This document shows positions 1-49,643 of a DNA stretch of 64,000 nt, one piece after another. The position numbers were made by a program, and so were the translations under genes. This DNA comes from Minisyncoccota bacterium. GTDB lineage: Bacteria > Patescibacteriota > Minisyncoccia > Phycocordibacterales > CAJBRS01. Every line of letters begins with the position of its first letter. Position 1 is the first letter of the stretch. Below the pieces are notes generated by a model. The model saw only the letters and a program-made list of their open reading frames with translations. It did not search any database and was not told the origin of the DNA. The stretch spans positions 62,642 to 126,641 of the forward strand of contig DASRDX010000009.1 in NCBI GenBank assembly GCA_035652395.1. Reading direction: 5' to 3'.

Positions 1-681
1 AATACGACACCAGGCCATGATGGGGCGGTTTTAATTGAGAACAAGAAAATCAAAACTTTCGGACTTCATCTGCCTTTGGCCGAGGATTTTCGCGGTTTTA
101 AAAATATGGGCACCCGTCATCGAGCGGCCCTAGGTTTGGCGGAAAGATCGGATGCTTTAGTCATCGTTGTTTCCGAAGAACGCGGCATTGTATCAGTGGC
201 TGAAAATGGAGCCTTGCGAACAGTGACGGACGCCCCAAGCCTGCAGGGTATCGTCCGAAATTTTATGAAAGAGAATGTGCAGGAGAATCAGAGTTTTTGG
301 TATTACATTTTAGTCAATAACTTTTTTATCAAAATTCTGTCAGTTCTAATTTCTTTCGCTTTGTGGGTGCTTCTCGTATTTCAGGCCAATGTCGTAACTG
401 AAAGCTTGATTATTCCTCTTGAATTCAGTCACATTCCCTCAAACCTGATCGTTTCAAAAGTAATTCCGGCAGATGTTAATCTCTCCATCAGCGGCAATTC
501 ATCGGATCTCCATAATCTTAATCAGAATTCGGTGCGGATTGTAATTGACCTTACAAACGCTGCCGCCGGCACCAAGCAGGTGATCATTACCGGCGACAAT
601 ATTTCCATGCCTTCTTACATTACTTTGAACAACATTACGCCGAACAAGGTGTTGATTGGATTGCAGAAAGCGGGACCATAA
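1..681 (+). CDS. cdaA: Diadenylate cyclase (DAC domain) fused to a transmembrane segment and YbbR-like (CdaR-type) domain; 5' end lies outside the window
   Basis: Frame 1 is open from base 1. Translation HDGAVLIENKKIKTFGLHLPLAEDF...GTRHRAALGLAERSDALVIVVSEERGIVSVAENG matches the DAC signature (DGA, GTRHRAA, VVSEE-G). A hydrophobic helix and a beta-rich segment resembling a YbbR repeat follow. Confidence 0.75.
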   Translation, partial: NTTPGHDGAVLIENKKIKTFGLHLPLAEDFRGFKNMGTRHRAALGLAERSDALVIVVSEERGIVSVAENGALRTVTDAPSLQGIVRNFMKENVQENQSFWYYILVNNFFIKILSVLISFALWVLLVFQANVVTESLIIPLEFSHIPSNLIVSKVIPADVNLSISGNSSDLHNLNQNSVRIVIDLTNAAAGTKQVIITGDNISMPSYITLNNITPNKVLIGLQKAGP

Positions 682-790
682 AGAGACACTCCGATAAATT
701 TACTCTTTTAAAAGTCCTCGGATCTCCCGCTCCGTCATTTAAGGTGGTCCAGACTATTTAAAAGAGTAAATTTATCTTCGTTTAGGTGGG
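682..790. repeat. Conserved structured intergenic element, copy A (24-bp near-perfect stem 693-716/752-776 around a conserved 35-nt core)
   Basis: About 75% identical to 31273-31375. The core CTCGGATCTCCCGCTCCGTCATTTAAGGTGGTCCAGAC is conserved. The stem arms differ between copies but stay complementary. Both copies start directly after a plus-strand stop codon. Confidence 0.55.
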
Positions 791-798
791 AATCAAAT

Positions 799-1983
799 CT
801 ATTTTGTGTCTTTCAAAAGAAAGGCGTAACGCAAACCTACCAGCATGATTAAGCCAAGAACTAGAAAGACATACTGAAAATCAAAGAAAACTAACACAAG
901 TGAAGCAATAGCAGGTACAAAAATATACGGTAGATTTTTAGTCATACGAAAGAGGCCGATTAGATGAATGTTGGCGACACTGACCTGTTTGAAGAAATAA
1001 GATTCAGCCGATATTTCAATGAAGCTCGCCCCAATACGGGTAACAAATAAGAGGATGGTCCAGATGAGGAAATTAGCTTGACTGATGTAGGGAATCAGAA
1101 TGGTAGAGATAGCCACAATGATAAAACCCATAATCAGAATTTCTTGCTCGCCGTATTTTCTATCTTCGAGCCGCCCAAGCGGAATCTGGAAGAGGATAAA
1201 AGGCAGCAACATAATGCTGAACATTATGCCAATCTGCGGCCAGCTGAAACCAACATACTGGTGAAGATAAATAGGCATGTAAATACTCATCCAGGCGTAG
1301 AAGAAGTTCAGCAAAAAGTTATCGAATAATATATCGTAGACATTCGGATTATCCGTTAACTCCCGAGCTAGATTTTTGGAATTGGTTTCGTGATACACCT
1401 GATCCTTAAATTTGCGGAAATTTGCCGAGATAACATATAGAAGAGGAATGAGAAAGGCTGCACCGGCCAGATAGACTTTCCAGTATTCTGAATTAGTTAA
1501 AATCAGGCCGGCCACAAAAGGCACGACAATTGGCGGCAAATTAGTCATGGTCAGAAATATGCCGCGAATATTGCCGGTCTCTTCGTTACGAGAATAATTT
1601 TCCAGAAAAATGTCCAGATTAAAAATTAAGATTGGGTTAAGGGCTTGAGAAATAATGAACATGACCGCTATTAGATAAATATTTTGCCCATAGGCTAGCC
1701 CAATTAAACACAGAGCTTCAAGGAGAATTAAACCGATCATCAAGCGATAATTGCCGGTTCGGTTGAGAATCTTACCGATATTAAGAAAGATAAAAAGATT
1801 GGCGAAAGCGCCCAGACTATAAAGTAATCCCACCAGAGCTGTACTGCCGAAGTAGCTGACTAAATAAGCGGAATTAATGAAGTAAATAAAAAAGAAGTGA
1901 ATGGAGTAGAGGAGAGCGGAGACATAGATAAGCATGAAGATGCGAATGGTTTTGGGTTGATATACAACAGGTTCTTGGTCCAT
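799..1983 (-). CDS. MFS-type transporter (about 12 predicted TM helices)
   Basis: 394-aa ORF that is hydrophobic throughout, with repeated helix-loop pattern and charged loops (GRLEDRK) typical of major facilitator proteins. Confidence 0.65.
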   Translation of the reverse strand: MDQEPVVYQPKTIRIFMLIYVSALLYSIHFFFIYFINSAYLVSYFGSTALVGLLYSLGAFANLFIFLNIGKILNRTGNYRLMIGLILLEALCLIGLAYGQNIYLIAVMFIISQALNPILIFNLDIFLENYSRNEETGNIRGIFLTMTNLPPIVVPFVAGLILTNSEYWKVYLAGAAFLIPLLYVISANFRKFKDQVYHETNSKNLARELTDNPNVYDILFDNFLLNFFYAWMSIYMPIYLHQYVGFSWPQIGIMFSIMLLPFILFQIPLGRLEDRKYGEQEILIMGFIIVAISTILIPYISQANFLIWTILLFVTRIGASFIEISAESYFFKQVSVANIHLIGLFRMTKNLPYIFVPAIASLVLVFFDFQYVFLVLGLIMLVGLRYAFLLKDTK

Positions 1984-1996
1984 GAAATTATTTTAA

Positions 1997-2082
1997 CACG
2001 CCAGAGCTCTCACTTTGTTTGAGACCGCTCCAGGGGCGCTTGCCCGAGTCTTAGTCTCAAACAAAGTGAGAGCTCTGGCGTG
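1997..2082. repeat. Perfect 29-bp inverted repeat (arms 1997-2025 and 2054-2082, 28-nt spacer) between RNase J stop and MFS start
   Basis: CACGCCAGAGCTCTCACTTTGTTTGAGAC ... GTCTCAAACAAAGTGAGAGCTCTGGCGTG read directly. It sits 13 nt upstream of the MFS ATG on the minus strand. No clear U-tract follows on either strand. Confidence 0.6.
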
Positions 2083-4173: not shown

Positions 4174-5946
4174 TTATTTGTTAAAAATTTTCCAAACTCT
4201 TTCTTTTTCCAGATACCAATTTTCAATGCCCAAGAATCGGTCTGAAGAGTTGGTAATATTACCCACCTCGAAACCTCCAAGAGCTTTTGGCACCACGTAA
4301 ATAAAATCGGGAGTGTAAAGGAAAACTGCCGGCACATCTTTATCTATTTCCGTTTCAAATTTCTGATAATTGGTGACGGTCGTAGCCGGGTCAGAAGCCG
4401 CTCTGGCTGCCTCAAGCAACTTATCTACTCGGCTGTTGGTGTAAAGGGCGATATTTAACCCCGGTGCATTTCGTTCAGCCGAATCCCAGAAGCTGTAGAC
4501 ATCGAGGCCCGGTGGAATAATCTCTCCGAAAAGTAAGGCGTCATATTTGCGCGGCTGAATAACGTTTTGATTAAGATCGGCGGCCTCATAAATCTTAATA
4601 TCAACACTGGCTCCGAGATCCTGCCACATTTTCTGAACCAGATTAGCAGTTTTAACTAAATCTGGCGTATCAATAGTGGAGATAGTTAACTGGAGACGCT
4701 CTGTTTTCTTATTAGCGCTCTTCTGTAAGACGCCGTCTGTACCAGTGGCCCAACCATTGGAAGCGAGAAGTTTGCGGGCCTCCGCTAAGCCGCCACTTGA
4801 AACCGACGAGGAAGCGCTATCTGAAGTAGAGCTAGTAGCGGCCGGGAGCAGACTTGTTGGAATCGGTTCAGTTAGAGGTTCGGCGTAACCGTTAAAAACT
4901 TCTTTGACAATTTCCTCTCGATCAACTGACAGGCTCAGGGCTTTGCGAACTTCCTGATGTAACAGGACCGGATTTTGACTCTGGTTGAAAAAGATGCCGA
5001 AAACTCGCGGCAGAGTAGAGGTAGCGATAGCAGTTTTTCCGGAATGGATATAAGCGGCCTGATCTGGAGAAATACTGTTAATGTCCTGCACCTCGTTATT
5101 GTTGAAAGCGGTCAGCAAGTTGTTTTGATTGGTATAAATTCTGACAATGATGTCCTTAATGAAGGGCGCGCCACCAGCGTAATTTTTAAACGGCACTAAA
5201 TGATAATATTCTGGCAGACCTGAAGAATCAGTCTTAATGCTTTTAATCATGTATGGGCCGGAGCCGATCGGAGTGCGGTTGAGATCACTTAGAGTAAAAG
5301 AGTCGGCATCACCAGCTTCATTCCAGAGATGTTTCGGCAAGATGCCCAAAGTAGTATTTTGAAGAAAAGGCCCATAGGGTTTCTTTAAAGTAAATTTAAT
5401 TTCTTTCGGATTAATTACCTGAACCGTCACACCCTGCCAATTAGCTTCTCGAGGACTTTTAATGGTGGGATCTTCCACTTTTAAAACCGTAAATTGCACA
5501 TCGTCAGCGGTGACGGCTACGCCGTCCTGAAAAGTGGCATCTTTTCTCAAAATAAAATCGTAAGTCAGGCCGTCCGGAGAGACACTGTAGCTTTCGGCTA
5601 AATCAGGTACTAATTCGCCCGAAGCGGTGCGCTTCATTAAGCCCGAATAGATAAGTTGAGTCAGATCTCGCCCCGAATCATTGATGGCCAGAACCGGATT
5701 GATATAACGCGGATAGCCGACAACACCCTCTTCTAAAGTACCGCCTTTAGCTGGAATCTCTACCATAAAGGCGTTATTCACTTCATTCAAAAGTAGTAAG
5801 GCTGACAAGGCAAAGAGTCCGAAAAACGTATAAAAAACCAGTTTTTCCGCCAAACCAAAGGACTTAATGGCCAGACGCAATTTTTCCGTCTTGGGGATAC
5901 GCCACTTGTGAGGGCCGATTTTTTGAAAGGAGGTTTTTAAATTCAC
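4174..5946 (-). CDS. ABC transporter substrate-binding protein, family 5 (peptide/nickel type), membrane-anchored
   Basis: N-terminal TM anchor followed by EIPAKGGTLEEGVVGYPRYINP...DLAESYSVSPDGLTYDFILRKDATFQDG, resembling SBP_bac_5. Confidence 0.7.
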   Translation of the reverse strand: MNLKTSFQKIGPHKWRIPKTEKLRLAIKSFGLAEKLVFYTFFGLFALSALLLLNEVNNAFMVEIPAKGGTLEEGVVGYPRYINPVLAINDSGRDLTQLIYSGLMKRTASGELVPDLAESYSVSPDGLTYDFILRKDATFQDGVAVTADDVQFTVLKVEDPTIKSPREANWQGVTVQVINPKEIKFTLKKPYGPFLQNTTLGILPKHLWNEAGDADSFTLSDLNRTPIGSGPYMIKSIKTDSSGLPEYYHLVPFKNYAGGAPFIKDIIVRIYTNQNNLLTAFNNNEVQDINSISPDQAAYIHSGKTAIATSTLPRVFGIFFNQSQNPVLLHQEVRKALSLSVDREEIVKEVFNGYAEPLTEPIPTSLLPAATSSTSDSASSSVSSGGLAEARKLLASNGWATGTDGVLQKSANKKTERLQLTISTIDTPDLVKTANLVQKMWQDLGASVDIKIYEAADLNQNVIQPRKYDALLFGEIIPPGLDVYSFWDSAERNAPGLNIALYTNSRVDKLLEAARAASDPATTVTNYQKFETEIDKDVPAVFLYTPDFIYVVPKALGGFEVGNITNSSDRFLGIENWYLEKERVWKIFNK

Positions 5947-12124: not shown

Positions 12125-12305
12125 TTTGTTTAAAAATCCGAGGGGATTCGCCCGCGAGTAAATTTTTGCTACCCGCAAAAATTTCTCTGGGCACCGGCTC
12201 GCGGCCTCGCGTGCTCGCTCGGCATCCGCTCCGCCATTCGAATCCCTCCCTCTCAGAGTCAGACGCCTTGCCGCAGAGTGATGCAGATCACTCTTTGCAA
12301 GTCGT

Positions 12306-12394
12306 TGCGGAGAGGGAGGGATTCGAACCCTCGGTACCCTTACGAGCACACAGACTTTCCAGGTCTGCCCATTCAACCACTCTGGCACCTCTCC
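12306..12394 (-). tRNA. tRNA-Ser (anticodon GGA), type II with long variable arm
   Basis: The reverse complement reads GGAGAGGTGCCAGAGTGGTTGAATGGGCAGACCTGGAAAGTCTG...GGTTCGAATCCCTCCCTCTCCG. Anticodon stem CAGAC/GTCTG, loop CTGGAAA. Confidence 0.85.
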
Positions 12395-17032: not shown

Positions 17033-17458
17033 ATGAACCTTACGAATATTCTGGAAAAACCTCACGCTATTGGTGAGCGCTGTAAAGGCTGCGAGGAAGC
17101 CGATTATCGACATCCCACCGCGACCTGTTCGGACTTTCAATCTAAGATGTTGGCCATTGTCAGAGAAGCGGATCAACATCTTCAATTTGAAGTGGCTGTT
17201 CTCAATTACATCTCAGAAAACCTCGAAACTTTTTCTGAAGCCGAGATTTCTCCAAAGGGCCTGTTGGCTCACTTCAATTTTAAAATCCCTCTTACGCAAG
17301 AGTTCAGCTTAATTGAATACGGGAAAGAGATCCGGGAATGGGTAAAAACGCGACTGCCCACAAAATCCAGCAGCACTCTCGGTAAGTTCTTAATAAAGAA
17401 GGGTCTCATCCAGCCTCACGAGCTTTACTTCAACATTCATCCACCGCATAGCGCTTAG
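17033..17458 (+). CDS. Hypothetical protein (CxxC...C near N-terminus)
   Basis: 141-aa ORF containing CKGCEEADYRHPTATC. Confidence 0.4.
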   Translation: MNLTNILEKPHAIGERCKGCEEADYRHPTATCSDFQSKMLAIVREADQHLQFEVAVLNYISENLETFSEAEISPKGLLAHFNFKIPLTQEFSLIEYGKEIREWVKTRLPTKSSSTLGKFLIKKGLIQPHELYFNIHPPHSA

Positions 17459-28530: not shown

Positions 28531-31272
28531 ATGAGCCTTTCAATCACCAAGCATGACGGTAGCCGCGAACCTTTTAATGCCGATCAAATTAATCGATCCA
28601 TTGAAAGAGCTTGTCGCGGACTGATGGATCCGATTGCGATGGTTACTCAAATTGCTACTGAAACGCGACTGACTCTTTATGATGGAATCACTACCAAAGA
28701 ACTTGATCAGGCTACCATCAATGCTTCTCTTCAAAATGTTAAAGATGACCCTTCATACGACAAGGTAGCTACTCGTATTCTTCTGAAAACCATTTATCGT
28801 GAGGTTTTGGGAGATTACGATAAGGATAGTGAAGCGGAATTAATTAAAAAACATCGCGACGGTTTCATTAACTTCATTAAAAAGGGAGTGGAAGAGGGTA
28901 AGCTCGATTCACGAATGGAAGAAAAATTTAATCTGCGTGAACTTTCCAAAACTTTAGATATTGAACGAGATGAATTATTTCAGTACGCCGGTCTTTCCAC
29001 TTTTCTCAATCGTTATGCTCTGAAGAATTTAGATCAAAGTCCGCGCGAAACGCCGCAATATTTTTTCATGCGAGTGGCCATGGGACTTTCATTCAACGAA
29101 AACAAACCAACGGAGTGGGCCAAGAAGTTTTACAACAAGATGAGCAAATTTGAATACATTGGTGGCGGTTCCACCAATCTCGGCGCCGGAACAACTCACC
29201 CGGCACTTTCAAATTGTTTCCTGATGGAAGTGCAGGACGACATGGCGCACATTGCCAAGAGTGTGGCGGATGTGATGATGCTCTCTAAAGCTTCAGGCGG
29301 CCTGGGTGTTTCCGTTTCAAAATTACGAGCGGCCGGCTCACCTCTAAAATCAAACAATGGAGTTTCCACTGGTCCTACTCCTTTTGCCAAGATTATGGAC
29401 ACGGCCATTCGGGCTATTCAGCGAGGCGGCAAGAAAAAGGGGGCTCTCTGCTTCTATTTAGAGAATTGGCACATTGATTTTCCAGAATTTATTGACTGGA
29501 AGCACAACGCCGGCGATGACTACATGAGAATGAGAACCGCCAATACGGCCGCTTATCTTTCGGATGAATTCATGAAACGAGTCAGAAAAGCCGAGATGTG
29601 GTACATGTTTGATCCGGCTGAAACGGCTGACTTGGGAGAATTATACGGAGAAGCGTTCAGCAAGCGCTACAACAAGTACGTGGAGTTGGCTGATCAGGGT
29701 AAATTAAAGATGGCCAAGAAAATGCCAGCCGTAGAACTTTATCGTAAGATGCTCGTCTCTCTGCAGACCACCGGACACCCATGGCAGATTTTTAAAGACA
29801 CCATTAATCTGCGAGCTCTCAACAACAACACCGGCACCATTCACATGTCTAATCTCTGCACGGAAATCTGTTTACCACAGGATAAGGATAATATTGCTGT
29901 CTGTAATCTGGCTTCACTTAACTTAGCCGTGCATGTCATTAATAAGGAAGTTAACTGGGGCAAATTGGAAGAGTCAGTACGATTAGCCATTCGGCAGCTT
30001 GACAACCTTATTGACATTAACGTTCTGCCGGTAGCCGAGGCGGAGCGAGCGGATAAAGAGAATCGGGCCGTCGGACTCGGAGTAATGGGCTTTGCCGATG
30101 CTCTGGAGAAAATGGGCTTGGCATATGATAGTCAGCCGGCATACGATTTTGCCGATCGAATTTTTGAATTCATTAGTTATATGGCTATTGATGAGAGCGC
30201 CCGATTGGCCGATGAGCGCGGAGCGTACAAAAACTTCGCCGGCTCCGAATGGTCAAAAGGTCACGTGCCATTCGACACTATTTCTAAAATCGAAAAAGAG
30301 AGAGGTGTTCCGGTTTCCGTCACTCTTGAGAGCAAACACAAAGGTCTTAACTGGGATATCTTGCGGGAGAAAGTTAAGAAGGGAATTAGAAACGCCACTC
30401 TGATGGCTATTGCTCCGAACGCCAATATCGGCTTAATTGCCGCTACTACGCCGGGAGTAGACCCACGTTTTGCTCAAGTTTTTTCTCGCAACAAGATTTC
30501 CGGCAAATATCTCGATATCAACCATAATCTAGTGAAGGATTTGAAGAACCTTGGGGTTTGGGAAAAGGTAAAAGATTTAATCATTGAATATCAAGGTGAC
30601 ATTTCCAACATTGCCGAGATTCCCGAACACATCAAGGCAGTTTATAAGACTTCATTTACCACTTCACCCTATGGCTTTATTGAAGTAGTAGCTCGGGCCC
30701 AGAAATGGATGGATCAGGCTATTTCGCGCAACATGTATCTGCGCACCCGTGACATTGATGAGACGATGAAGATTTATATGAGCGCTTGGGAGAAAGGATT
30801 AAAGAGTACTTACTATCTACACATGGAACCAAGACACACAGCCGAGCAAAGTACCGTCTCCGTCAATAAGTCGCAGAAGATGGGCCGGGTGGGCTTCGGC
30901 GGTCTTCGAAAGAGTACCGTAGCGGCTGCGGTGGTAGAGGAAAAGACCACCGATGAATCGGAACTTCTGGCAGACAGTGCTCCCGCTACCATGATTGTGG
31001 AACCGGTGGTTAGTCCGATTAAAGAAGAAGACATGGTTGAGCCGGTAATGGTAGCGAAGATAGAGAAAAACATCGTCGAGACTGACAAAGCCGTGAGAAC
31101 TGTTGAGAGTGTCTCGAAAACTCCTAAAGTAGAAACTTCTGACGTTGCTCCAGCCGCCGTTACTCCCGCTGATCCAATTGCTCAATCTAAAAAGCCGAAC
31201 GTTCGTTTTATCGGCGCCAAGACTTGCCCAACGGATCCGGCTGAATTAAATCAGTGCGATAGTTGTCAATAA
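28531..31272 (+). CDS. nrdA: Ribonucleotide reductase class I alpha subunit with N-terminal ATP-cone and a C-terminal low-complexity extension
   Basis: ATP-cone ITKHDGSREPFNADQINRSIERAC. NxCxE region NLCTEICL. C-terminal Cys pair CPTDPAELNQCDSCQ. About 913 aa. Confidence 0.95.
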   Translation: MSLSITKHDGSREPFNADQINRSIERACRGLMDPIAMVTQIATETRLTLYDGITTKELDQATINASLQNVKDDPSYDKVATRILLKTIYREVLGDYDKDSEAELIKKHRDGFINFIKKGVEEGKLDSRMEEKFNLRELSKTLDIERDELFQYAGLSTFLNRYALKNLDQSPRETPQYFFMRVAMGLSFNENKPTEWAKKFYNKMSKFEYIGGGSTNLGAGTTHPALSNCFLMEVQDDMAHIAKSVADVMMLSKASGGLGVSVSKLRAAGSPLKSNNGVSTGPTPFAKIMDTAIRAIQRGGKKKGALCFYLENWHIDFPEFIDWKHNAGDDYMRMRTANTAAYLSDEFMKRVRKAEMWYMFDPAETADLGELYGEAFSKRYNKYVELADQGKLKMAKKMPAVELYRKMLVSLQTTGHPWQIFKDTINLRALNNNTGTIHMSNLCTEICLPQDKDNIAVCNLASLNLAVHVINKEVNWGKLEESVRLAIRQLDNLIDINVLPVAEAERADKENRAVGLGVMGFADALEKMGLAYDSQPAYDFADRIFEFISYMAIDESARLADERGAYKNFAGSEWSKGHVPFDTISKIEKERGVPVSVTLESKHKGLNWDILREKVKKGIRNATLMAIAPNANIGLIAATTPGVDPRFAQVFSRNKISGKYLDINHNLVKDLKNLGVWEKVKDLIIEYQGDISNIAEIPEHIKAVYKTSFTTSPYGFIEVVARAQKWMDQAISRNMYLRTRDIDETMKIYMSAWEKGLKSTYYLHMEPRHTAEQSTVSVNKSQKMGRVGFGGLRKSTVAAAVVEEKTTDESELLADSAPATMIVEPVVSPIKEEDMVEPVMVAKIEKNIVETDKAVRTVESVSKTPKVETSDVAPAAVTPADPIAQSKKPNVRFIGAKTCPTDPAELNQCDSCQ

Positions 31273-31375
31273 AAGGACGCTCCACAAAATCTTATTTTAA
31301 AGGTCCTCGGATCTCCGGCTTTGTCTAATTAAGGTCGGCCAGACCATTTAAAATAAGATTTTGCTTCGCTTAAGA
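31273..31375. repeat. Conserved structured intergenic element, copy B (stem 31285-31305/31342-31363)
   Basis: Same architecture and core as 682-790. Stem arms are changed in a compensatory way (GGTC/GACC versus AGTC/GACT). Confidence 0.55.
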
Positions 31376-31385
31376 GTTCTAATAA

Positions 31386-31414
31386 TTAGAGCGCCGGCGA
31401 AGCCGGCGCTCTAC
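31386..31414 (+). terminator. Hairpin between nrdA and nrdB
   Basis: AGAGCGCCGGCGAAGCCGGCGCTCT. Confidence 0.5.
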
Positions 31415-31496
31415 ATATCCATTTGCGTCATATTTACTTTCCATTACAATAGTAATCACTTACTTTAAAAACCTTATAAACTTTAAGAACCAACCC

Positions 31497-32504
31497 ATGC
31501 CCCTCATCGGAAAAGCCTCACCGGAAGATATGAATCTACACCCACTGCGATATCAGTGGGCTTATGATCTCTACAATCAGGCCGTGCGCAATACTTGGTT
31601 TCCGCACGAAATTGCCCTGAAAGAAGACCTGGATGACTGGGAGAAAATGACGGAGGACGAGAGACACGCGGTAAAATTCTTAATGGCTTTCTTCAATCCG
31701 GCCGAACTGATTGTCAATCGCTCCATTGCTCTCGGTATTTATCCATATCTGAAGGCGCCGGAAGCTCACCTCTATCTCGCCAAGGTGATGTGGGAGGAAG
31801 CTAATCATTGCGTTTCTTTTGAATACGTACTTGAAACCTTCCCCCTTGATCGAGAAAAGATTTTTGGTATCCATCTTCAGACTCCTTCGATGATAGCCAA
31901 GGAAGAATTTATTTTTCGGTATTTAAGGAGAATGACGGAAGAGACTCTGGATATTGAATCGCCGGAAGGGAAGAAGGATTTCATCCGCAACCTTGTGGCC
32001 ACCAATATTGTAATGGAGGGTACTTGGTTTTATTCAGGTTTCATGGTGGCTCTGTCTTTTCGACAGCGAAATCAGTTGCGCAATTTCGGCTCAATGATTA
32101 ATTGGGTCTTGCGGGATGAATCGCTTCACTTGAAATTCGGCATCAATCTAGTCCACACCATTCTTGAGGAGAATTCCGAACTTGTAACCGAAGAATTTGC
32201 TAATGAAATCCGCAACATCGTCATTGAAGGGGTGGATAAGGAGGTAGCCTACAACAAAGATCTCTTTCCAAACGGCATTCTTGGTTTGAACGCTGATTAT
32301 GTCAATCAATATGTGCAGTATGTGGCGGATAGACGTTTGGAAGAATTGGGTCTGGAGAAACACTATAATGCCACCAATCCGGCCAAATGGATGAGCACTG
32401 CCACTGACGTTTTTGAGCTGGTGAATTTCTTTGAAGCTCAAAATACTAGCTACGAAGTGGATGTGCAGGCGCATTCATCGGAGAAGAAGGAACCGACGAA
32501 ATAA
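31497..32504 (+). CDS. nrdB: Ribonucleotide reductase class I beta subunit
   Basis: Di-iron ligand pattern EEANHCVSFEY...ESLH, ferritin-like R2. Confidence 0.9.
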   Translation: MPLIGKASPEDMNLHPLRYQWAYDLYNQAVRNTWFPHEIALKEDLDDWEKMTEDERHAVKFLMAFFNPAELIVNRSIALGIYPYLKAPEAHLYLAKVMWEEANHCVSFEYVLETFPLDREKIFGIHLQTPSMIAKEEFIFRYLRRMTEETLDIESPEGKKDFIRNLVATNIVMEGTWFYSGFMVALSFRQRNQLRNFGSMINWVLRDESLHLKFGINLVHTILEENSELVTEEFANEIRNIVIEGVDKEVAYNKDLFPNGILGLNADYVNQYVQYVADRRLEELGLEKHYNATNPAKWMSTATDVFELVNFFEAQNTSYEVDVQAHSSEKKEPTK

Positions 32505-32552: not shown

Positions 32553-32962
32553 TTTCTCTTTGGATCTGTAAGCCGAATTCTGTGCGAGATAGGCGAAGTC
32601 GCTTTTCTCGTGACAATTATTTATCTGGGCCAGCTGTTACCAGCCGGCTCTAGCGGCACCCCCAGCCGTAGTTTTGAGATTTTAAAACAAAACTACGGTT
32701 GGGTACGGCCTTGCACAGGGGTAAGGATTTTGCCGTTTCACTCCCGAAATTACTTTCGGGCTTCGCCCTACAGACCATTCGCCTGTAGAGCGGCGGTTTT
32801 CTTTCGAAAACCGCCGTTTCTGTTCGCACCTCTTGGATTGCTCCAGACGGGCGTTACCCGCCACCTTTTCAAATTAATGAACTGTGTTCGGACTTTCCTC
32901 CCAATCATTTCTGACCGAGCAATTGTCCAATTCAAAGAGGCTAGAAGTATAATATAGGCCGT
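32553..32962 (-). ncRNA. rnpB: RNase P RNA, bacterial type A
   Basis: The minus strand carries GGGAGGAAAGUCCG (P4 5' strand, rc of 32889-32902), GGUAACGCC, GUGCGAACAGAAACGGCGG, and a 3' region CUGGCCCAGAUAAAUAAUUGUCACGA...CACAGAAUUCGGCUUACAG matching E. coli M1 RNA CUGGCCUAGAUGAAUGACUGUCCACGACAGAACCCGGCUUA. The region contains many nested hairpins. Exact ends are uncertain. Confidence 0.8.
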
Positions 32963-40139: not shown

Positions 40140-40315
40140 ATGAAATTGGTTCAATAATTCTATGGCAATAAGCCTAACACTCGAATATTCGGACTATGAG
40201 AAATGTTTTTCCCGTATCTCGCACTTTACAGAGTTCGATAATTCTATGGCACCGAGCCCCAATATACGAATATTCGGACGATGAGAGATATTTTTCTCGC
40301 CACTCGCACTAATTA
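40140..40315 (+). repeat. Two degenerate tRNA-derived repeat units (about 87 nt each) containing TAATTCTATGGCA and CGAATATTCGGAC; unit 2 ends with a 19-nt copy of the tRNA-Gly 3' end
   Basis: 40151-40195 and 40231-40280 share GTTCGATAATTCTATGGCA...CGAATATTCGGAC. 40296-40314 TCTCGCCACTCGCACTAAT is identical to 40090-40108. Confidence 0.6.
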
Positions 40316-43383: not shown

Positions 43384-43456
43384 GCCGAGGTAGCTCAGTT
43401 GGTAGAGCATTTGCCTGAAGAGCAAGGGGTCGCCGGTTCGAGCCCGGCCCTCGGCA
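43384..43456 (+). tRNA. tRNA-Phe (anticodon GAA)
   Basis: GCCGAGGTAGCTCAGTTGGTAGAGCATTTGCCTGAAGAGCAAGGGGTCGCCGGTTCGAGCCCGGCCCTCGGCA. Confidence 0.9.
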
Positions 43457-43500
43457 CTAAAATAATAACCGCCAATTCTAATTGGCGGTTATTATTTTAG
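43457..43500. terminator. 21-bp perfect palindrome after tRNA-Phe (bidirectional terminator-like)
   Basis: CTAAAATAATAACCGCCAATT CT AATTGGCGGTTATTATTTTAG. Confidence 0.6.
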
Positions 43501-43607
43501 TGCCGTAAAGTCCGTATAGCTTAAGCAATTATGTGGCAAGAAGCTATTAACCTCCAAAATTCAAACAATGAGAAGTATTTTCCGGCCCTCGACTTTGTAT
43601 AATTGAT

Positions 43608-49366: not shown

Positions 49367-49439
49367 GTGCGCGGTGAGGGATTCGAACCCCCGGCATCAA
49401 CAACGTCAATGTTGCGCTCTACCAACTGAGCTAACCGCG
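49367..49439 (-). tRNA. tRNA-Val (anticodon GAC)
   Basis: rc: GCGCGGTTAGCTCAGTTGGTAGAGCGCAACATTGACGTTGTTGATGCCGGGGGTTCGAATCCCTCACCGCGCA. Confidence 0.85.
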
Positions 49440-49524
49440 CCTTTTATGAAATTTACCATTTTTCGGCGATAGAGGAAAAAGTTTTACCACAGTTTGCCAC
49501 ATACCTTGGAGTATCGGGCCTTCT

Positions 49525-49598
49525 TGCCATAGAATTACTCTTCACCTCTAACATCAACCACGTCAATGTTGCGCTCTACCAATTGAGCTAATCGCCCT
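49525..49598 (-). pseudogene. Truncated tRNA-Val 5' half followed by TAATTCTATGGCA-containing sequence
   Basis: rc of 49549-49598 is GGGCGATTAGCTCAATTGGTAGAGCGCAACATTGACGTGGTTGATG, then TTAGAGGTGAAGAGTAATTCTATGGCAAGAAGGCC. There is no T-arm. Confidence 0.6.
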
Positions 49599-49643
49599 TC
49601 TTTTGAATAATAAAGTCTTCCGAGCTTTTGGGCAAGAATCTGT

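What the first reader, a model, noticed from the sequence alone, without database searches (positions are those of the whole stretch)
31273..31375. Copy B of the structured element lies between nrdA and nrdB, upstream of a separate hairpin
Copy B starts immediately after the nrdA stop (31272). It is followed by an independent GC hairpin at 31386-31414, and nrdB starts at 31497. An NrdR box would be a 16-bp palindrome, which this is not. Its placement inside a ribonucleotide reductase operon with an ATP-cone alpha subunit makes it a candidate for post-transcriptional control of alpha/beta stoichiometry.
Basis: partly seen in the sequence, partly recalled or inferred. Interest (0 to 1): 0.5.

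Follow-up and report, generated by a model that had tools for sequence, protein, structure and literature searches.

The report
Dispersed long-hairpin repeat after nrdA
The structured sequence between nrdA and nrdB is real, but it is one copy of a small hairpin repeat found beside unrelated genes in this tiny candidate-phylum (Paceibacterota) genome and, in other versions, in its relatives, so it is not a dedicated ribonucleotide reductase regulator.

Summary
Window 31270-31376 (+) is a 107-nt element that starts at the nrdA stop codon. It folds into a 21-bp perfect stem (plus 4 bp beyond a bulged A) carrying a 36-nt apex. A separate GC hairpin follows at 31387-31413, and nrdB starts at 31497. 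A second copy at 679-792 follows an unrelated gene (cdaA). The two copies are 84% identical, with 7 compensated pair changes, a compensated 2-nt indel and no unpaired cell. Rfam, phage, plasmid, viral, genome and metagenome searches found no other copy of this sequence. The organism is a Candidatus Paceibacterota (CPR) bacterium. Five related genomes with the same nrdA-nrdB arrangement were examined. Three lack any element in the spacer. Two carry different long-hairpin elements at the same spot, and one of those types has 4-5 copies in 21 kb. All these elements share one architecture: a 15-29 bp perfectly Watson-Crick stem that differs from copy to copy, and an apex whose sequence is conserved within a genome. 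My best reading is a proliferating non-coding hairpin repeat. Transcribed after nrdA, it would act as a generic 3'-end barrier or insulator, and nrdB appears to have its own -10 box. Dedicated alpha/beta stoichiometry control is not supported. I class it as a new variant of bacterial palindromic repeats, of moderate interest.

The parts
31270..31284 (+). nrdA stop codon (TAA, 31270-31272) plus the conserved 5' flank of copy B (AAGGACGCTCCA)
   Evidence: Aligns with TAAAGAGACACTCC of copy A. Sequence.
31285..31305 (+). 5' arm of the long stem of copy B (CAAAATCTTATTTTAAA plus GGTC)
   Evidence: 17 perfect Watson-Crick pairs, plus 4 more beyond a bulged A. 5 of 23 pairs of this helix changed on both sides relative to copy A, and there is a compensated 2-nt indel.
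31306..31341 (+). Apex of copy B (CTCGGATCTCCGGCTTTGTCTAATTAAGGTCGGCCA), the sequence-conserved core
   Evidence: GTCCTCGGATCTCC and TTAAGGTNGNCCAGAC are identical in both copies and occur nowhere else in the window. A predicted 5-bp inner helix has two G-U pairs in both copies, so it is specific to the + strand.
31342..31363 (+). 3' arm of the long stem of copy B (GACC, bulged A at 31346, TTTAAAATAAGATTTTG)
   Evidence: The bulged A is kept in copy A (position 756).
31364..31376 (+). Conserved 3' flank of copy B (CTTCGCTTAAGAG)
   Evidence: Aligns with CTTCGTTTAGGTG of copy A. Similarity ends after this point.
31387..31413 (+). Independent GC hairpin (12-bp stem, GAA loop) with no T-run on either side; not part of the repeat
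   Evidence: (family D1). No terminator-like site was called in 31000-31700. It is absent after copy A and absent from the L001 spacer.
31445..31450 (+). TACAAT, a candidate -10 box for nrdB, 46 nt before the ATG at 31497
   Evidence: TACAAT or CATAAT lies 29-46 nt upstream of the nrdB ATG in the window, L001, L082 and L087. This is an inference, not a mapped start.
679..792 (+). Copy A of the same element: cdaA stop at 679-681, arms at 693-716 and 752-776, apex at 717-751
   Evidence: (D4). It lies between cdaA (+) and an MFS transporter gene (799-1983, -), which converge.
1997..2082 (-). A second type of long-hairpin element ('type 2'): 29-bp perfect stem, apex UAAGACUCGGGCAAGCGCCCCUGGAGCG
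   Evidence: (I3). The same apex (24 of 28 nt) sits on an unrelated stem in relative L001 at 5025-5081, directly after nrdB.

Best explanation
Copy B is one of two copies in this 64-kb window of a non-coding long-hairpin repeat, which I call type 1. It belongs to a wider class of intergenic hairpin elements in this clade of Candidatus Paceibacterota. Each member has a long stem (15-29 bp in the elements seen) that is perfectly Watson-Crick and differs from copy to copy. Each also has an apex of 27-90 nt whose sequence is conserved among copies within a genome but differs between genomes. The elements multiply within genomes and come and go between related genomes, like the small palindromic repeats of other bacteria. 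They are not tied to any gene function. Shown: the two copies, their compensated stems, their positions at stop codons, their absence from three related nrdAB loci, and the presence of different elements of the same build at two other related nrdAB loci and beside other genes. Inferred: the apex together with the inner stem is the unit under sequence constraint. Inferred: the outer stem is kept perfectly complementary by a DNA-level process, such as template switching between the arms during replication, or by very strict selection. Inferred: when transcribed as the tail of the nrdA message, the + strand folds into a hairpin of about -37 kcal/mol. That hairpin would act as a generic 3'-end barrier or processing site, either blocking 3'-to-5' exonucleases or serving as an RNase III substrate. 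Together with the GC hairpin it would separate nrdA from nrdB, which appears to have its own promoter.
For: Two copies at 132 bits each, with nothing else in the window above 31 bits. 84% identity, 62 of 62 cells paired, 7 compensated pairs and a compensated 2-nt indel; slid controls give 0 compensated pairs. Copy A follows cdaA, an unrelated gene. Relatives L001, L003 and L081 have nrdA-nrdB spacers of 93, 39 and 42 nt and no element. L082 has a different element after nrdA and 3-4 further copies of that type within 21 kb, in both orientations. Their 15-nt loop block is identical in three of the copies, and 22 of 38 pairs are compensated across the three aligned copies. Two of the copies have apices that are 52 of 54 identical on unrelated stems. 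L087 has yet another long hairpin directly after the nrdA stop. The type 2 apex is shared by the window (1997-2082) and L001 (after nrdB) on unrelated stems. In 11 elements, 219 bp of long stem are all Watson-Crick with no G-U pair, which fits DNA-level maintenance. Template switching as a maker and keeper of perfect hairpins is described in PMC8794818 (abstract seen). No Rfam family matches. No transposase, integrase or reverse transcriptase domain was found in the window proteins scanned or in the precomputed Pfam hits of the overlapping loci; a few short ORFs were not scanned. -10-like hexamers lie upstream of nrdB in four genomes. The genome has almost no Shine-Dalgarno motifs, and -10-like boxes sit close to many start codons, so genes may often be transcribed singly.
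Against: Only two type 1 copies could be seen. No mobilising enzyme, target-site duplication or exact empty site was found. Classical MITEs and REPINs conserve their arms, which is the opposite of what is seen here. Both type 1 copies and all three type 2 copies are in sense orientation directly after a stop codon, and the inner apex helix uses G-U pairs. These two points argue for a selected RNA role rather than purely selfish DNA. A large hairpin after nrdA in 3 of 6 lineages is more than I would expect from random placement (my rough estimate is about 1 in 1000), so some locus-specific benefit cannot be excluded. The link between type 1 and the other types rests on shared architecture and one short motif (CUCGG-N3-4-CCSGC). 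By-eye similarity to the L087 element failed a local-alignment test.
Confidence: 0.6

Rival explanations
1. The element is a dedicated cis-regulatory RNA of the ribonucleotide reductase operon that tunes the alpha/beta ratio after transcription.
For: It sits exactly between nrdA and nrdB in sense orientation. A large hairpin occupies the same spot in L082 and L087. The GC hairpin and a candidate nrdB promoter follow it.
Against: The only other copy follows cdaA. Three of five related nrdAB loci have no element. The elements at the L082 and L087 nrdAB loci have different sequences, and the L082 type also sits beside unrelated genes in both orientations. No riboswitch or other Rfam family matches.
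Confidence: 0.1
2. The conserved apex is a small RNA in its own right, and the long perfect stem is only a processing signal. RNase III would cut the double-stranded stem of 17 bp or more and release the apex from the tails of housekeeping transcripts. Stem sequence would then be free to vary while the apex is conserved.
For: This explains the unusual pattern of a conserved apex on unrelated but always perfect stems of 15-29 bp. The small inner hairpins of type 3 covary. The inner helix of type 1 uses G-U pairs, so it is strand-specific. Types 1 and 2 are always in sense orientation.
Against: No expression data exist. Type 3 copies occur in both orientations, including an inverted pair 220 nt apart. 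The apex differs between closely related genomes, which is odd for a trans-acting RNA with a fixed partner. No complementary target was found in the window. The presence of RNase III in this genome was not checked.
Confidence: 0.15
3. The element works as DNA. It would be a cruciform or hairpin site for a recombinase, nuclease or replication protein, or a hot spot for rearrangement.
For: The stems are perfect palindromes with no G-U pair. Single-gene inversions lie next to such elements: the MFS gene is inverted in L039 relative to the window and L042, and RNase P RNA is inverted in the window relative to L001 and L082. Type 3 occurs in both orientations.
Against: No recombinase or HUH-type gene was seen in the window proteins scanned or in the precomputed Pfam hits of the overlapping loci. 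The apex is asymmetric and its inner helix needs G-U pairs on one strand. The inversions can be explained without the elements.
Confidence: 0.1
4. It is simply the intrinsic transcription terminator of nrdA.
For: It is a stable hairpin placed right after a stop codon.
Against: There is no T-run after the stem, and the terminator scan finds nothing in 31000-31700 or 400-1100. The genome's ordinary terminators are GC-rich 11-17 bp stems with 3-5 nt loops and A/T-run flanks. A simple terminator has no need for a 36-nt conserved apex.
Confidence: 0.05

Closest known systems
REP/REPIN, ERIC, Correia (NEMIS) and Rickettsia palindromic elements: small non-coding palindromic repeats of bacterial genomes (from my own knowledge of these families)
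   Same: About 100 nt long, non-coding and hairpin-forming. Present in several copies per genome, mostly intergenic and close to gene ends. Patchy between related genomes, with families specific to a genome. Co-transcribed with neighbouring genes, where some are known to affect mRNA stability or processing.
   Different: In those families the arms (REP units or terminal inverted repeats) are the conserved part and the loop varies. Here the arms differ from copy to copy and the apex is conserved. No RAYT or other transposase, GTAG motif, clear target-site duplication or IHF site was found. The copy number seen for type 1 is only two.
Intercistronic RNase III processing hairpins, such as the R sites of phage T7 early mRNA and the long stems flanking 16S and 23S rRNA (from my own knowledge)
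   Same: A stem of about two helical turns interrupted by an internal loop, placed between cistrons. Cutting would leave a protective 3' hairpin on the upstream message or release the enclosed RNA.
   Different: Cleavage has not been tested. The T7 sites are not perfect duplexes and share sequence with each other. Nothing shows that this organism's RNase III acts here.
Integron attC sites
   Same: Structured hairpin sites that begin at or just after the stop codon of a gene. They are defined more by structure than by sequence and carry extrahelical bases.
   Different: attC sites conserve the base of the stem (the RYYYAAC and GTTRRRY core sites) and vary at the tip. Here the tip is conserved and the core sites are absent: the 3' ends read GCTTAAG and GTTTAGG. 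There is no integrase and no cassette array, and the flanking genes are syntenic housekeeping genes.
TIGR stem-loop arrays (PMC12045711)
   Same: Found in CPR bacteria. Units have variable palindromic stems around a loop with conserved motifs.
   Different: [quoted passage not shown] The elements here are solitary, no UGAUGA box C is visible in the apex sequences, and no Nop-domain protein was seen among the window proteins checked.

Membership tests
NrdR operator | A 16-bp palindromic NrdR box (acaCwAtATaTwGtgt), usually two copies, upstream of nrd genes | tested here: not met
   No match to ACACWATATATWGTGT with up to 3 mismatches anywhere in the window.
Intrinsic (Rho-independent) terminator | A short GC-rich stem followed directly by a run of U | tested here: not met
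   The scan found 0 terminator-like sites in 31000-31700 and in 400-1100. The uninterrupted run of the stem is 12-15% GC, and the tails read CUUCGCUUAAG and UUCGUUUAGG.
Known RNA families (Rfam 15), including riboswitches, ribozymes and sRNAs | A covariance-model score at or above the family's gathering threshold | tested here: not met
   Only tRNAs and RNase P reach threshold in the window. Permissive searches over copy B, copy A, type 2 and type 3 give only weak chance-level matches and generic miRNA-precursor hairpin matches.
MITE | Terminal inverted repeats whose sequence is conserved among copies | tested here: not met
   The arms of copies A and B differ at 6 positions and by a 2-nt indel. 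The outermost flanks are not inverted repeats of each other. Type 2 and type 3 copies have wholly unrelated arms.
MITE | A target-site duplication flanking each copy | tested here: inconclusive
   TA or TAA lies at both ends of copy B (TAA...TAA) and nearly so at copy A (TAA...TAG). These are too short and AT-rich to judge, and no exact empty site is available because related spacers have diverged.
MITE / REPIN | Many copies per genome and a cognate transposase or RAYT gene | not testable with these tools
   Only 64 kb plus about 3 kb of the source genome could be read. That gives two copies and no transposase-like Pfam domain. The related type 3 does reach 4-5 copies in 21 kb of L082.
REP / REPIN | A conserved REP palindrome with a GTAG-type head, paired in inverted orientation | tested here: not met
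   Conservation lies in the asymmetric apex, not in the arms, and the sequences show no such head motif.
Integron attC | R''/R' core sites (RYYYAAC ... GTTRRRY) at the base of the hairpin, an integrase gene and a cassette array | tested here: not met
   The bases of the hairpins lack these cores. The flanking genes are syntenic housekeeping genes in relatives. No integrase domain was found.
TIGR-Tas stem-loop array | [quoted passage not shown] | tested here: not met
   The copies are solitary and 30.6 kb apart. No UGAUGA box C is visible in the apex sequences, and no Nop-domain protein was seen among the window proteins checked. Family features are taken from PMC12045711.
RNase III processing site | About 20 bp or more of uninterrupted double-stranded RNA | tested here: met
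   17-20 perfect pairs, plus 4 more beyond a single bulged A, in both copies.
RNase III processing site | Cleavage by RNase III in vivo or in vitro | not testable with these tools
   This needs RNA-end mapping or an enzyme assay.

The most novel reading that the evidence does not exclude
These Paceibacterota hairpins may be a previously undescribed kind of genetic element in which the 27-90 nt apex is the unit that spreads or functions, and the long perfect stem is made anew at each site. One route is that the apex is a small mobile DNA whose insertion, or later template switching, turns one flank into an inverted copy of the other. The other route is that the apex is a multi-copy small RNA released from housekeeping transcripts by RNase III cutting in the stem. 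Either would be a mechanism not known for bacterial repeats.
Probability: 0.2. Interest if true: 0.75.

Novelty: new variant of a known kind. Interest (0 to 1): 0.5.

Why it matters
CPR bacteria have genomes of about 0.5-1 Mb with very short intergenic spacers, so 100-130 nt structured repeats that persist and multiply there need an explanation. If they are selfish, they are a new type of repeat with a reversed conservation pattern: the tip is conserved and the arms are unique. They would then be a natural test case for how perfect hairpins are made and kept. If they are useful, they point to a general way of ending, insulating or processing messages in organisms that largely lack Shine-Dalgarno sequences and seem to transcribe many genes singly. 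For annotation, the practical point is that a structure between nrdA and nrdB should not be read as an nrd regulator without checking for other copies.

Tried and rejected
1. Exact-pattern scans for the type 1 apex gave no real hit. The viral collection gave 0. GTDB species genomes gave 19 hits and JGI metagenomes gave 12. All of these lie in GC-rich, apparently coding sequence without the hairpin, and their number matches chance expectation.
2. A looser apex pattern in viral contigs gave 37 hits, and none matched the element model.
3. Viral scans for the type 2 apex, one stem arm, and the type 3 loop gave only chance hits or none.
4. blastn against phage and plasmid collections found nothing meaningful.
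5. I could not reach more of the source genome. The exact NrdB sequence is not indexed, and look-ups of genes at the window edges returned short Logan contigs that add only about 3 kb.
6. Orthology between copy B and the L087 element looked convincing by eye. In a local-alignment scan of L087, however, the element was not the best hit, so I dropped the claim.
7. A simple 19-bp hairpin in L042 lies in the same cdaA-MFS gap and has flanks like type 1 (25.9 bits). It is in the opposite orientation and breaks the proposed closing pair, so I keep it only as a possible relative.
8. Stop-codon readthrough: the in-frame extensions resemble each other only because the DNA is homologous, and nothing else supports the idea.
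9. attL/attR of an island: the 30.6 kb between the two direct copies holds syntenic housekeeping genes.
10. The stems as guides against other window sequences: there is no second match for any arm.
11. The ORF-free stretch at 61.6-64 kb is only gyrA running off the end of the window.

Full report
**What is there**

The window carries nrdA (28531-31272; ATP-cone, all-alpha and barrel domains) and nrdB (31497-32504) on the + strand, separated by 224 nt. The nrdA stop codon is the TAA at 31270-31272. The layout from there is:
- a conserved 5' flank, AAGGACGCTCCA (31273-31284);
- a 5' arm (31285-31305);
- a 36-nt apex (31306-31341);
- a 3' arm (31342-31363) with a bulged A at 31346;
- a conserved 3' flank, CTTCGCTTAAGAG (31364-31376).

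The separate GC hairpin is a 12-bp stem with a GAA loop at 31387-31413. The region 31265-31425 folds at -62 kcal/mol, z = -7.9 against shuffles. The element alone folds at -37.3 kcal/mol on the + strand and at -31.5 on the - strand. The difference comes from G-U pairs in the apex.

**The second copy**

A second copy lies at 679-792 (+). It begins at the TAA of a diadenylate cyclase gene (cdaA, with DAC and YbbR domains) and fills the 117-nt gap to a convergent MFS transporter gene. The two copies are 84% identical. A covariance model built from them scores each at 132 bits. The next best hit in the 64 kb scores 31 bits and is only the reverse strand of copy A.

On the consensus structure all 62 cells are paired. 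Seven pairs changed on both sides, and a 2-nt deletion in one arm is matched by a 2-nt deletion in the other. Sliding the partners by 1-3 columns gives 27-51% paired and no compensated pairs. Sequence conservation is concentrated in the apex (GTCCTCGGATCTCC and TTAAGGTNGNCCAGAC are identical in both copies) and in the flanks. The outer stem is the most diverged part.

**Known families**

Rfam at gathering thresholds finds only seven tRNAs and RNase P RNA in the window. Permissive searches over both copies give only chance-level or generic hairpin matches. There is no NrdR-box-like palindrome in the window, and no terminator-like site (GC stem plus T-run) at either copy.

**Organism**

NrdB and CdaA have 100%-identical database entries named Candidatus Paceibacterota bacterium, on a 462,702-bp contig. 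This is a CPR genome. Intergenic gaps are mostly under 110 nt. Only 1 of 54 genes has a Shine-Dalgarno-like motif, and -10-like boxes often lie within about 10-25 nt of the start codon. Many genes may therefore be transcribed singly, with little or no leader.

**Is it specific to nrd?**

I compared five related genomes that keep nrdA directly upstream of nrdB.
- Three have short spacers and no element: L001 (NrdB 92% identical, 93 nt), L003 (90%, 39 nt) and L081 (88%, 42 nt).
- Two have long spacers, each holding a long hairpin directly after nrdA but with a different sequence. L082 (88%, 256 nt) carries a 21-bp perfect stem with a 70-nt Y-shaped apex. L087 (86%, 331 nt) carries a 20-bp perfect stem with an 89-nt apex made of two perfect small hairpins.

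By-eye similarity between copy B and the L087 element did not survive a local-alignment scan, so I do not claim they are orthologous. A -10-like hexamer (TACAAT or CATAAT) lies 29-46 nt before the nrdB ATG in the window, L001, L082 and L087. This fits nrdB having its own promoter whether or not an element is present.

**A wider class of elements**

The L082 type ('type 3') occurs at least four times in 21 kb:
- after nrdA;
- between an asparaginase gene and RNase P RNA;
- twice, in inverted orientation, between murJ and lepA, with a degenerate fifth copy between those two.

The stems of these copies are unrelated in sequence, but each is a perfect run of 17-27 bp. Their apices share CACG, a 7-8 bp hairpin with a URCU loop, and a 15-nt block (CTCGGCTACCCGCCT) that is identical in three of the copies. 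Across the three aligned copies, 22 of 38 predicted pairs are compensated. The two murJ-lepA copies have apices that are 52 of 54 identical. The two differences form a compensated GGC/GCC to GCC/GGC swap. Yet their stems are unrelated.

The window itself holds another type ('type 2') at 1997-2082, read on the - strand downstream of RNase J. It has a 29-bp perfect stem. Its apex is 24 of 28 identical to that of a hairpin directly after nrdB in L001, again on an unrelated stem. L039 has a partial match downstream of its RNase J gene.

Type 1 and type 3 apices share the motif CUCGG-N3-4-CCSGC. Five of its 11 occurrences in 188 kb are in these apices. This is suggestive only.

Over 11 elements, 219 bp of long stem are all Watson-Crick, with no G-U pair or mismatch inside the runs.

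**Interpretation**

The pattern has four features: genome-specific conserved cores, several copies per genome, recent duplicates, and patchy presence among relatives beside unrelated genes. Type 3 also occurs in both orientations. This is how small non-coding repeats such as REP/REPIN, ERIC, Correia and Rickettsia palindromic elements behave. It is not how a gene-specific regulator behaves.

The unusual point is that the arms are unique to each copy while the tip is conserved. Perfect arms without wobble pairs point to a DNA-level process that copies one arm from the other. Template switching during replication has been proposed as a way to create and maintain such hairpins (PMC8794818, abstract seen). 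Very strict selection for uninterrupted duplex is the alternative.

Other features suggest that the transcript of the sense strand matters for types 1 and 2. Both are in sense orientation, type 1 starts in register at a stop codon, and the inner helix of type 1 uses G-U pairs. The most economical role is generic: a stable 3' hairpin that blocks exonucleases, or a duplex of about two turns that RNase III can cut. Either would separate the nrdA message from nrdB. This is inference, because no expression data were available.

**What I could not do**

The remainder of the source genome could not be read. Pattern scans of the genome, metagenome and viral collections returned only chance matches. 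The copy number of type 1 beyond two is therefore unknown. No transposase, integrase, reverse transcriptase or Nop-domain protein was seen in the window proteins scanned or in the precomputed Pfam hits of the overlapping loci; a few short ORFs were not scanned.

**Verdict**

The nrd-specific regulatory reading is only partly supported: a big structure after nrdA recurs in 3 of 6 lineages and probably insulates the two genes, but it is a generic, dispersed element. It is best filed as a new variant of bacterial palindromic repeats. There is a minority chance (about 0.2) that the pattern of a conserved tip on locally made arms reflects a mechanism not yet described.

Noticed in passing
window 1997-2082 (- strand); L001 5025-5081; L039 12425-12506: A second family of long hairpins ('type 2'). 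The apex UAAGACUYGGGCAARCGCCCC...GGAGYG sits between GAGAC and GUCUC on unrelated perfect stems of 29, 15 and 16 bp. The copies lie downstream of RNase J (window, L039) or directly after nrdB and upstream of RNase P RNA (L001). No Rfam match.
   Followed up: partly
L082 9783-9894, 12230-12341, 16977-17077, 17299-17399, and about 17150-17230: 'Type 3' elements: 4-5 copies in 21 kb of a relative, with unrelated perfect stems and a Y-shaped apex that shares a 15-nt block identical in three copies. An inverted pair and a degenerate copy fill the murJ-lepA spacer, where the window and L087 have a small ORF instead.
   Followed up: partly
L087 9675-9803: A long hairpin directly after the nrdA stop in another relative: a 20-bp perfect stem and an 89-nt apex made of two perfect small hairpins of 12 and 10 bp, folding at -83 kcal/mol.
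   Followed up: partly
window 799-1983 compared with L039 11213-12397 and L042 11263-12441; window 32553-32938 compared with L001 5139-5538 and L082 12378-12737: Single-gene inversions between close relatives. The MFS transporter gene is inverted in L039, and the RNase P RNA gene is inverted in the window. Both lie next to long-hairpin elements.
   Followed up: partly
window, whole (54 gene starts): Almost no Shine-Dalgarno motifs (1 of 54). TATAAT-like boxes often lie 7-25 nt before the start codon, suggesting widespread leaderless or short-leader transcripts.
   Followed up: partly
window 12237-12327: An 18-bp inverted duplicate of the 3' part of tRNA-Ser (12307-12394, -) lies next to the gene. 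It may be a scar of an integration or rearrangement. Two Logan assembly contigs of this genome break here.
   Followed up: no
window 43452-43505: A perfect 26-bp palindrome with a 2-nt loop starts inside the 3' end of tRNA-Phe (43384-43457). It is a long hairpin with no apex.
   Followed up: no
window 49395-49450 and 49552-49607; 40173-40225 and 40258-40310: An 88%-identical second copy of part of tRNA-Val is not called as a tRNA by ARAGORN or Rfam. Two 53-nt direct repeats (79% identical) lie downstream of tRNA-Gly. Neither is explained.
   Followed up: no
L042 11215-11280 (- strand): A simple 19-bp hairpin in the orthologous cdaA-MFS gap has flanks (UAAAAGACACU ... UUUCGCUU) that resemble the type 1 flanks. 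It is oriented towards the MFS gene rather than cdaA. It is the best hit of the element model outside the window (25.9 bits).
   Followed up: partly
L039 12525-12777: About 250 nt of further non-coding sequence with long internal complementarity lies between the type 2-like hairpin and the RNase J stop. No Rfam family reaches threshold.
   Followed up: no
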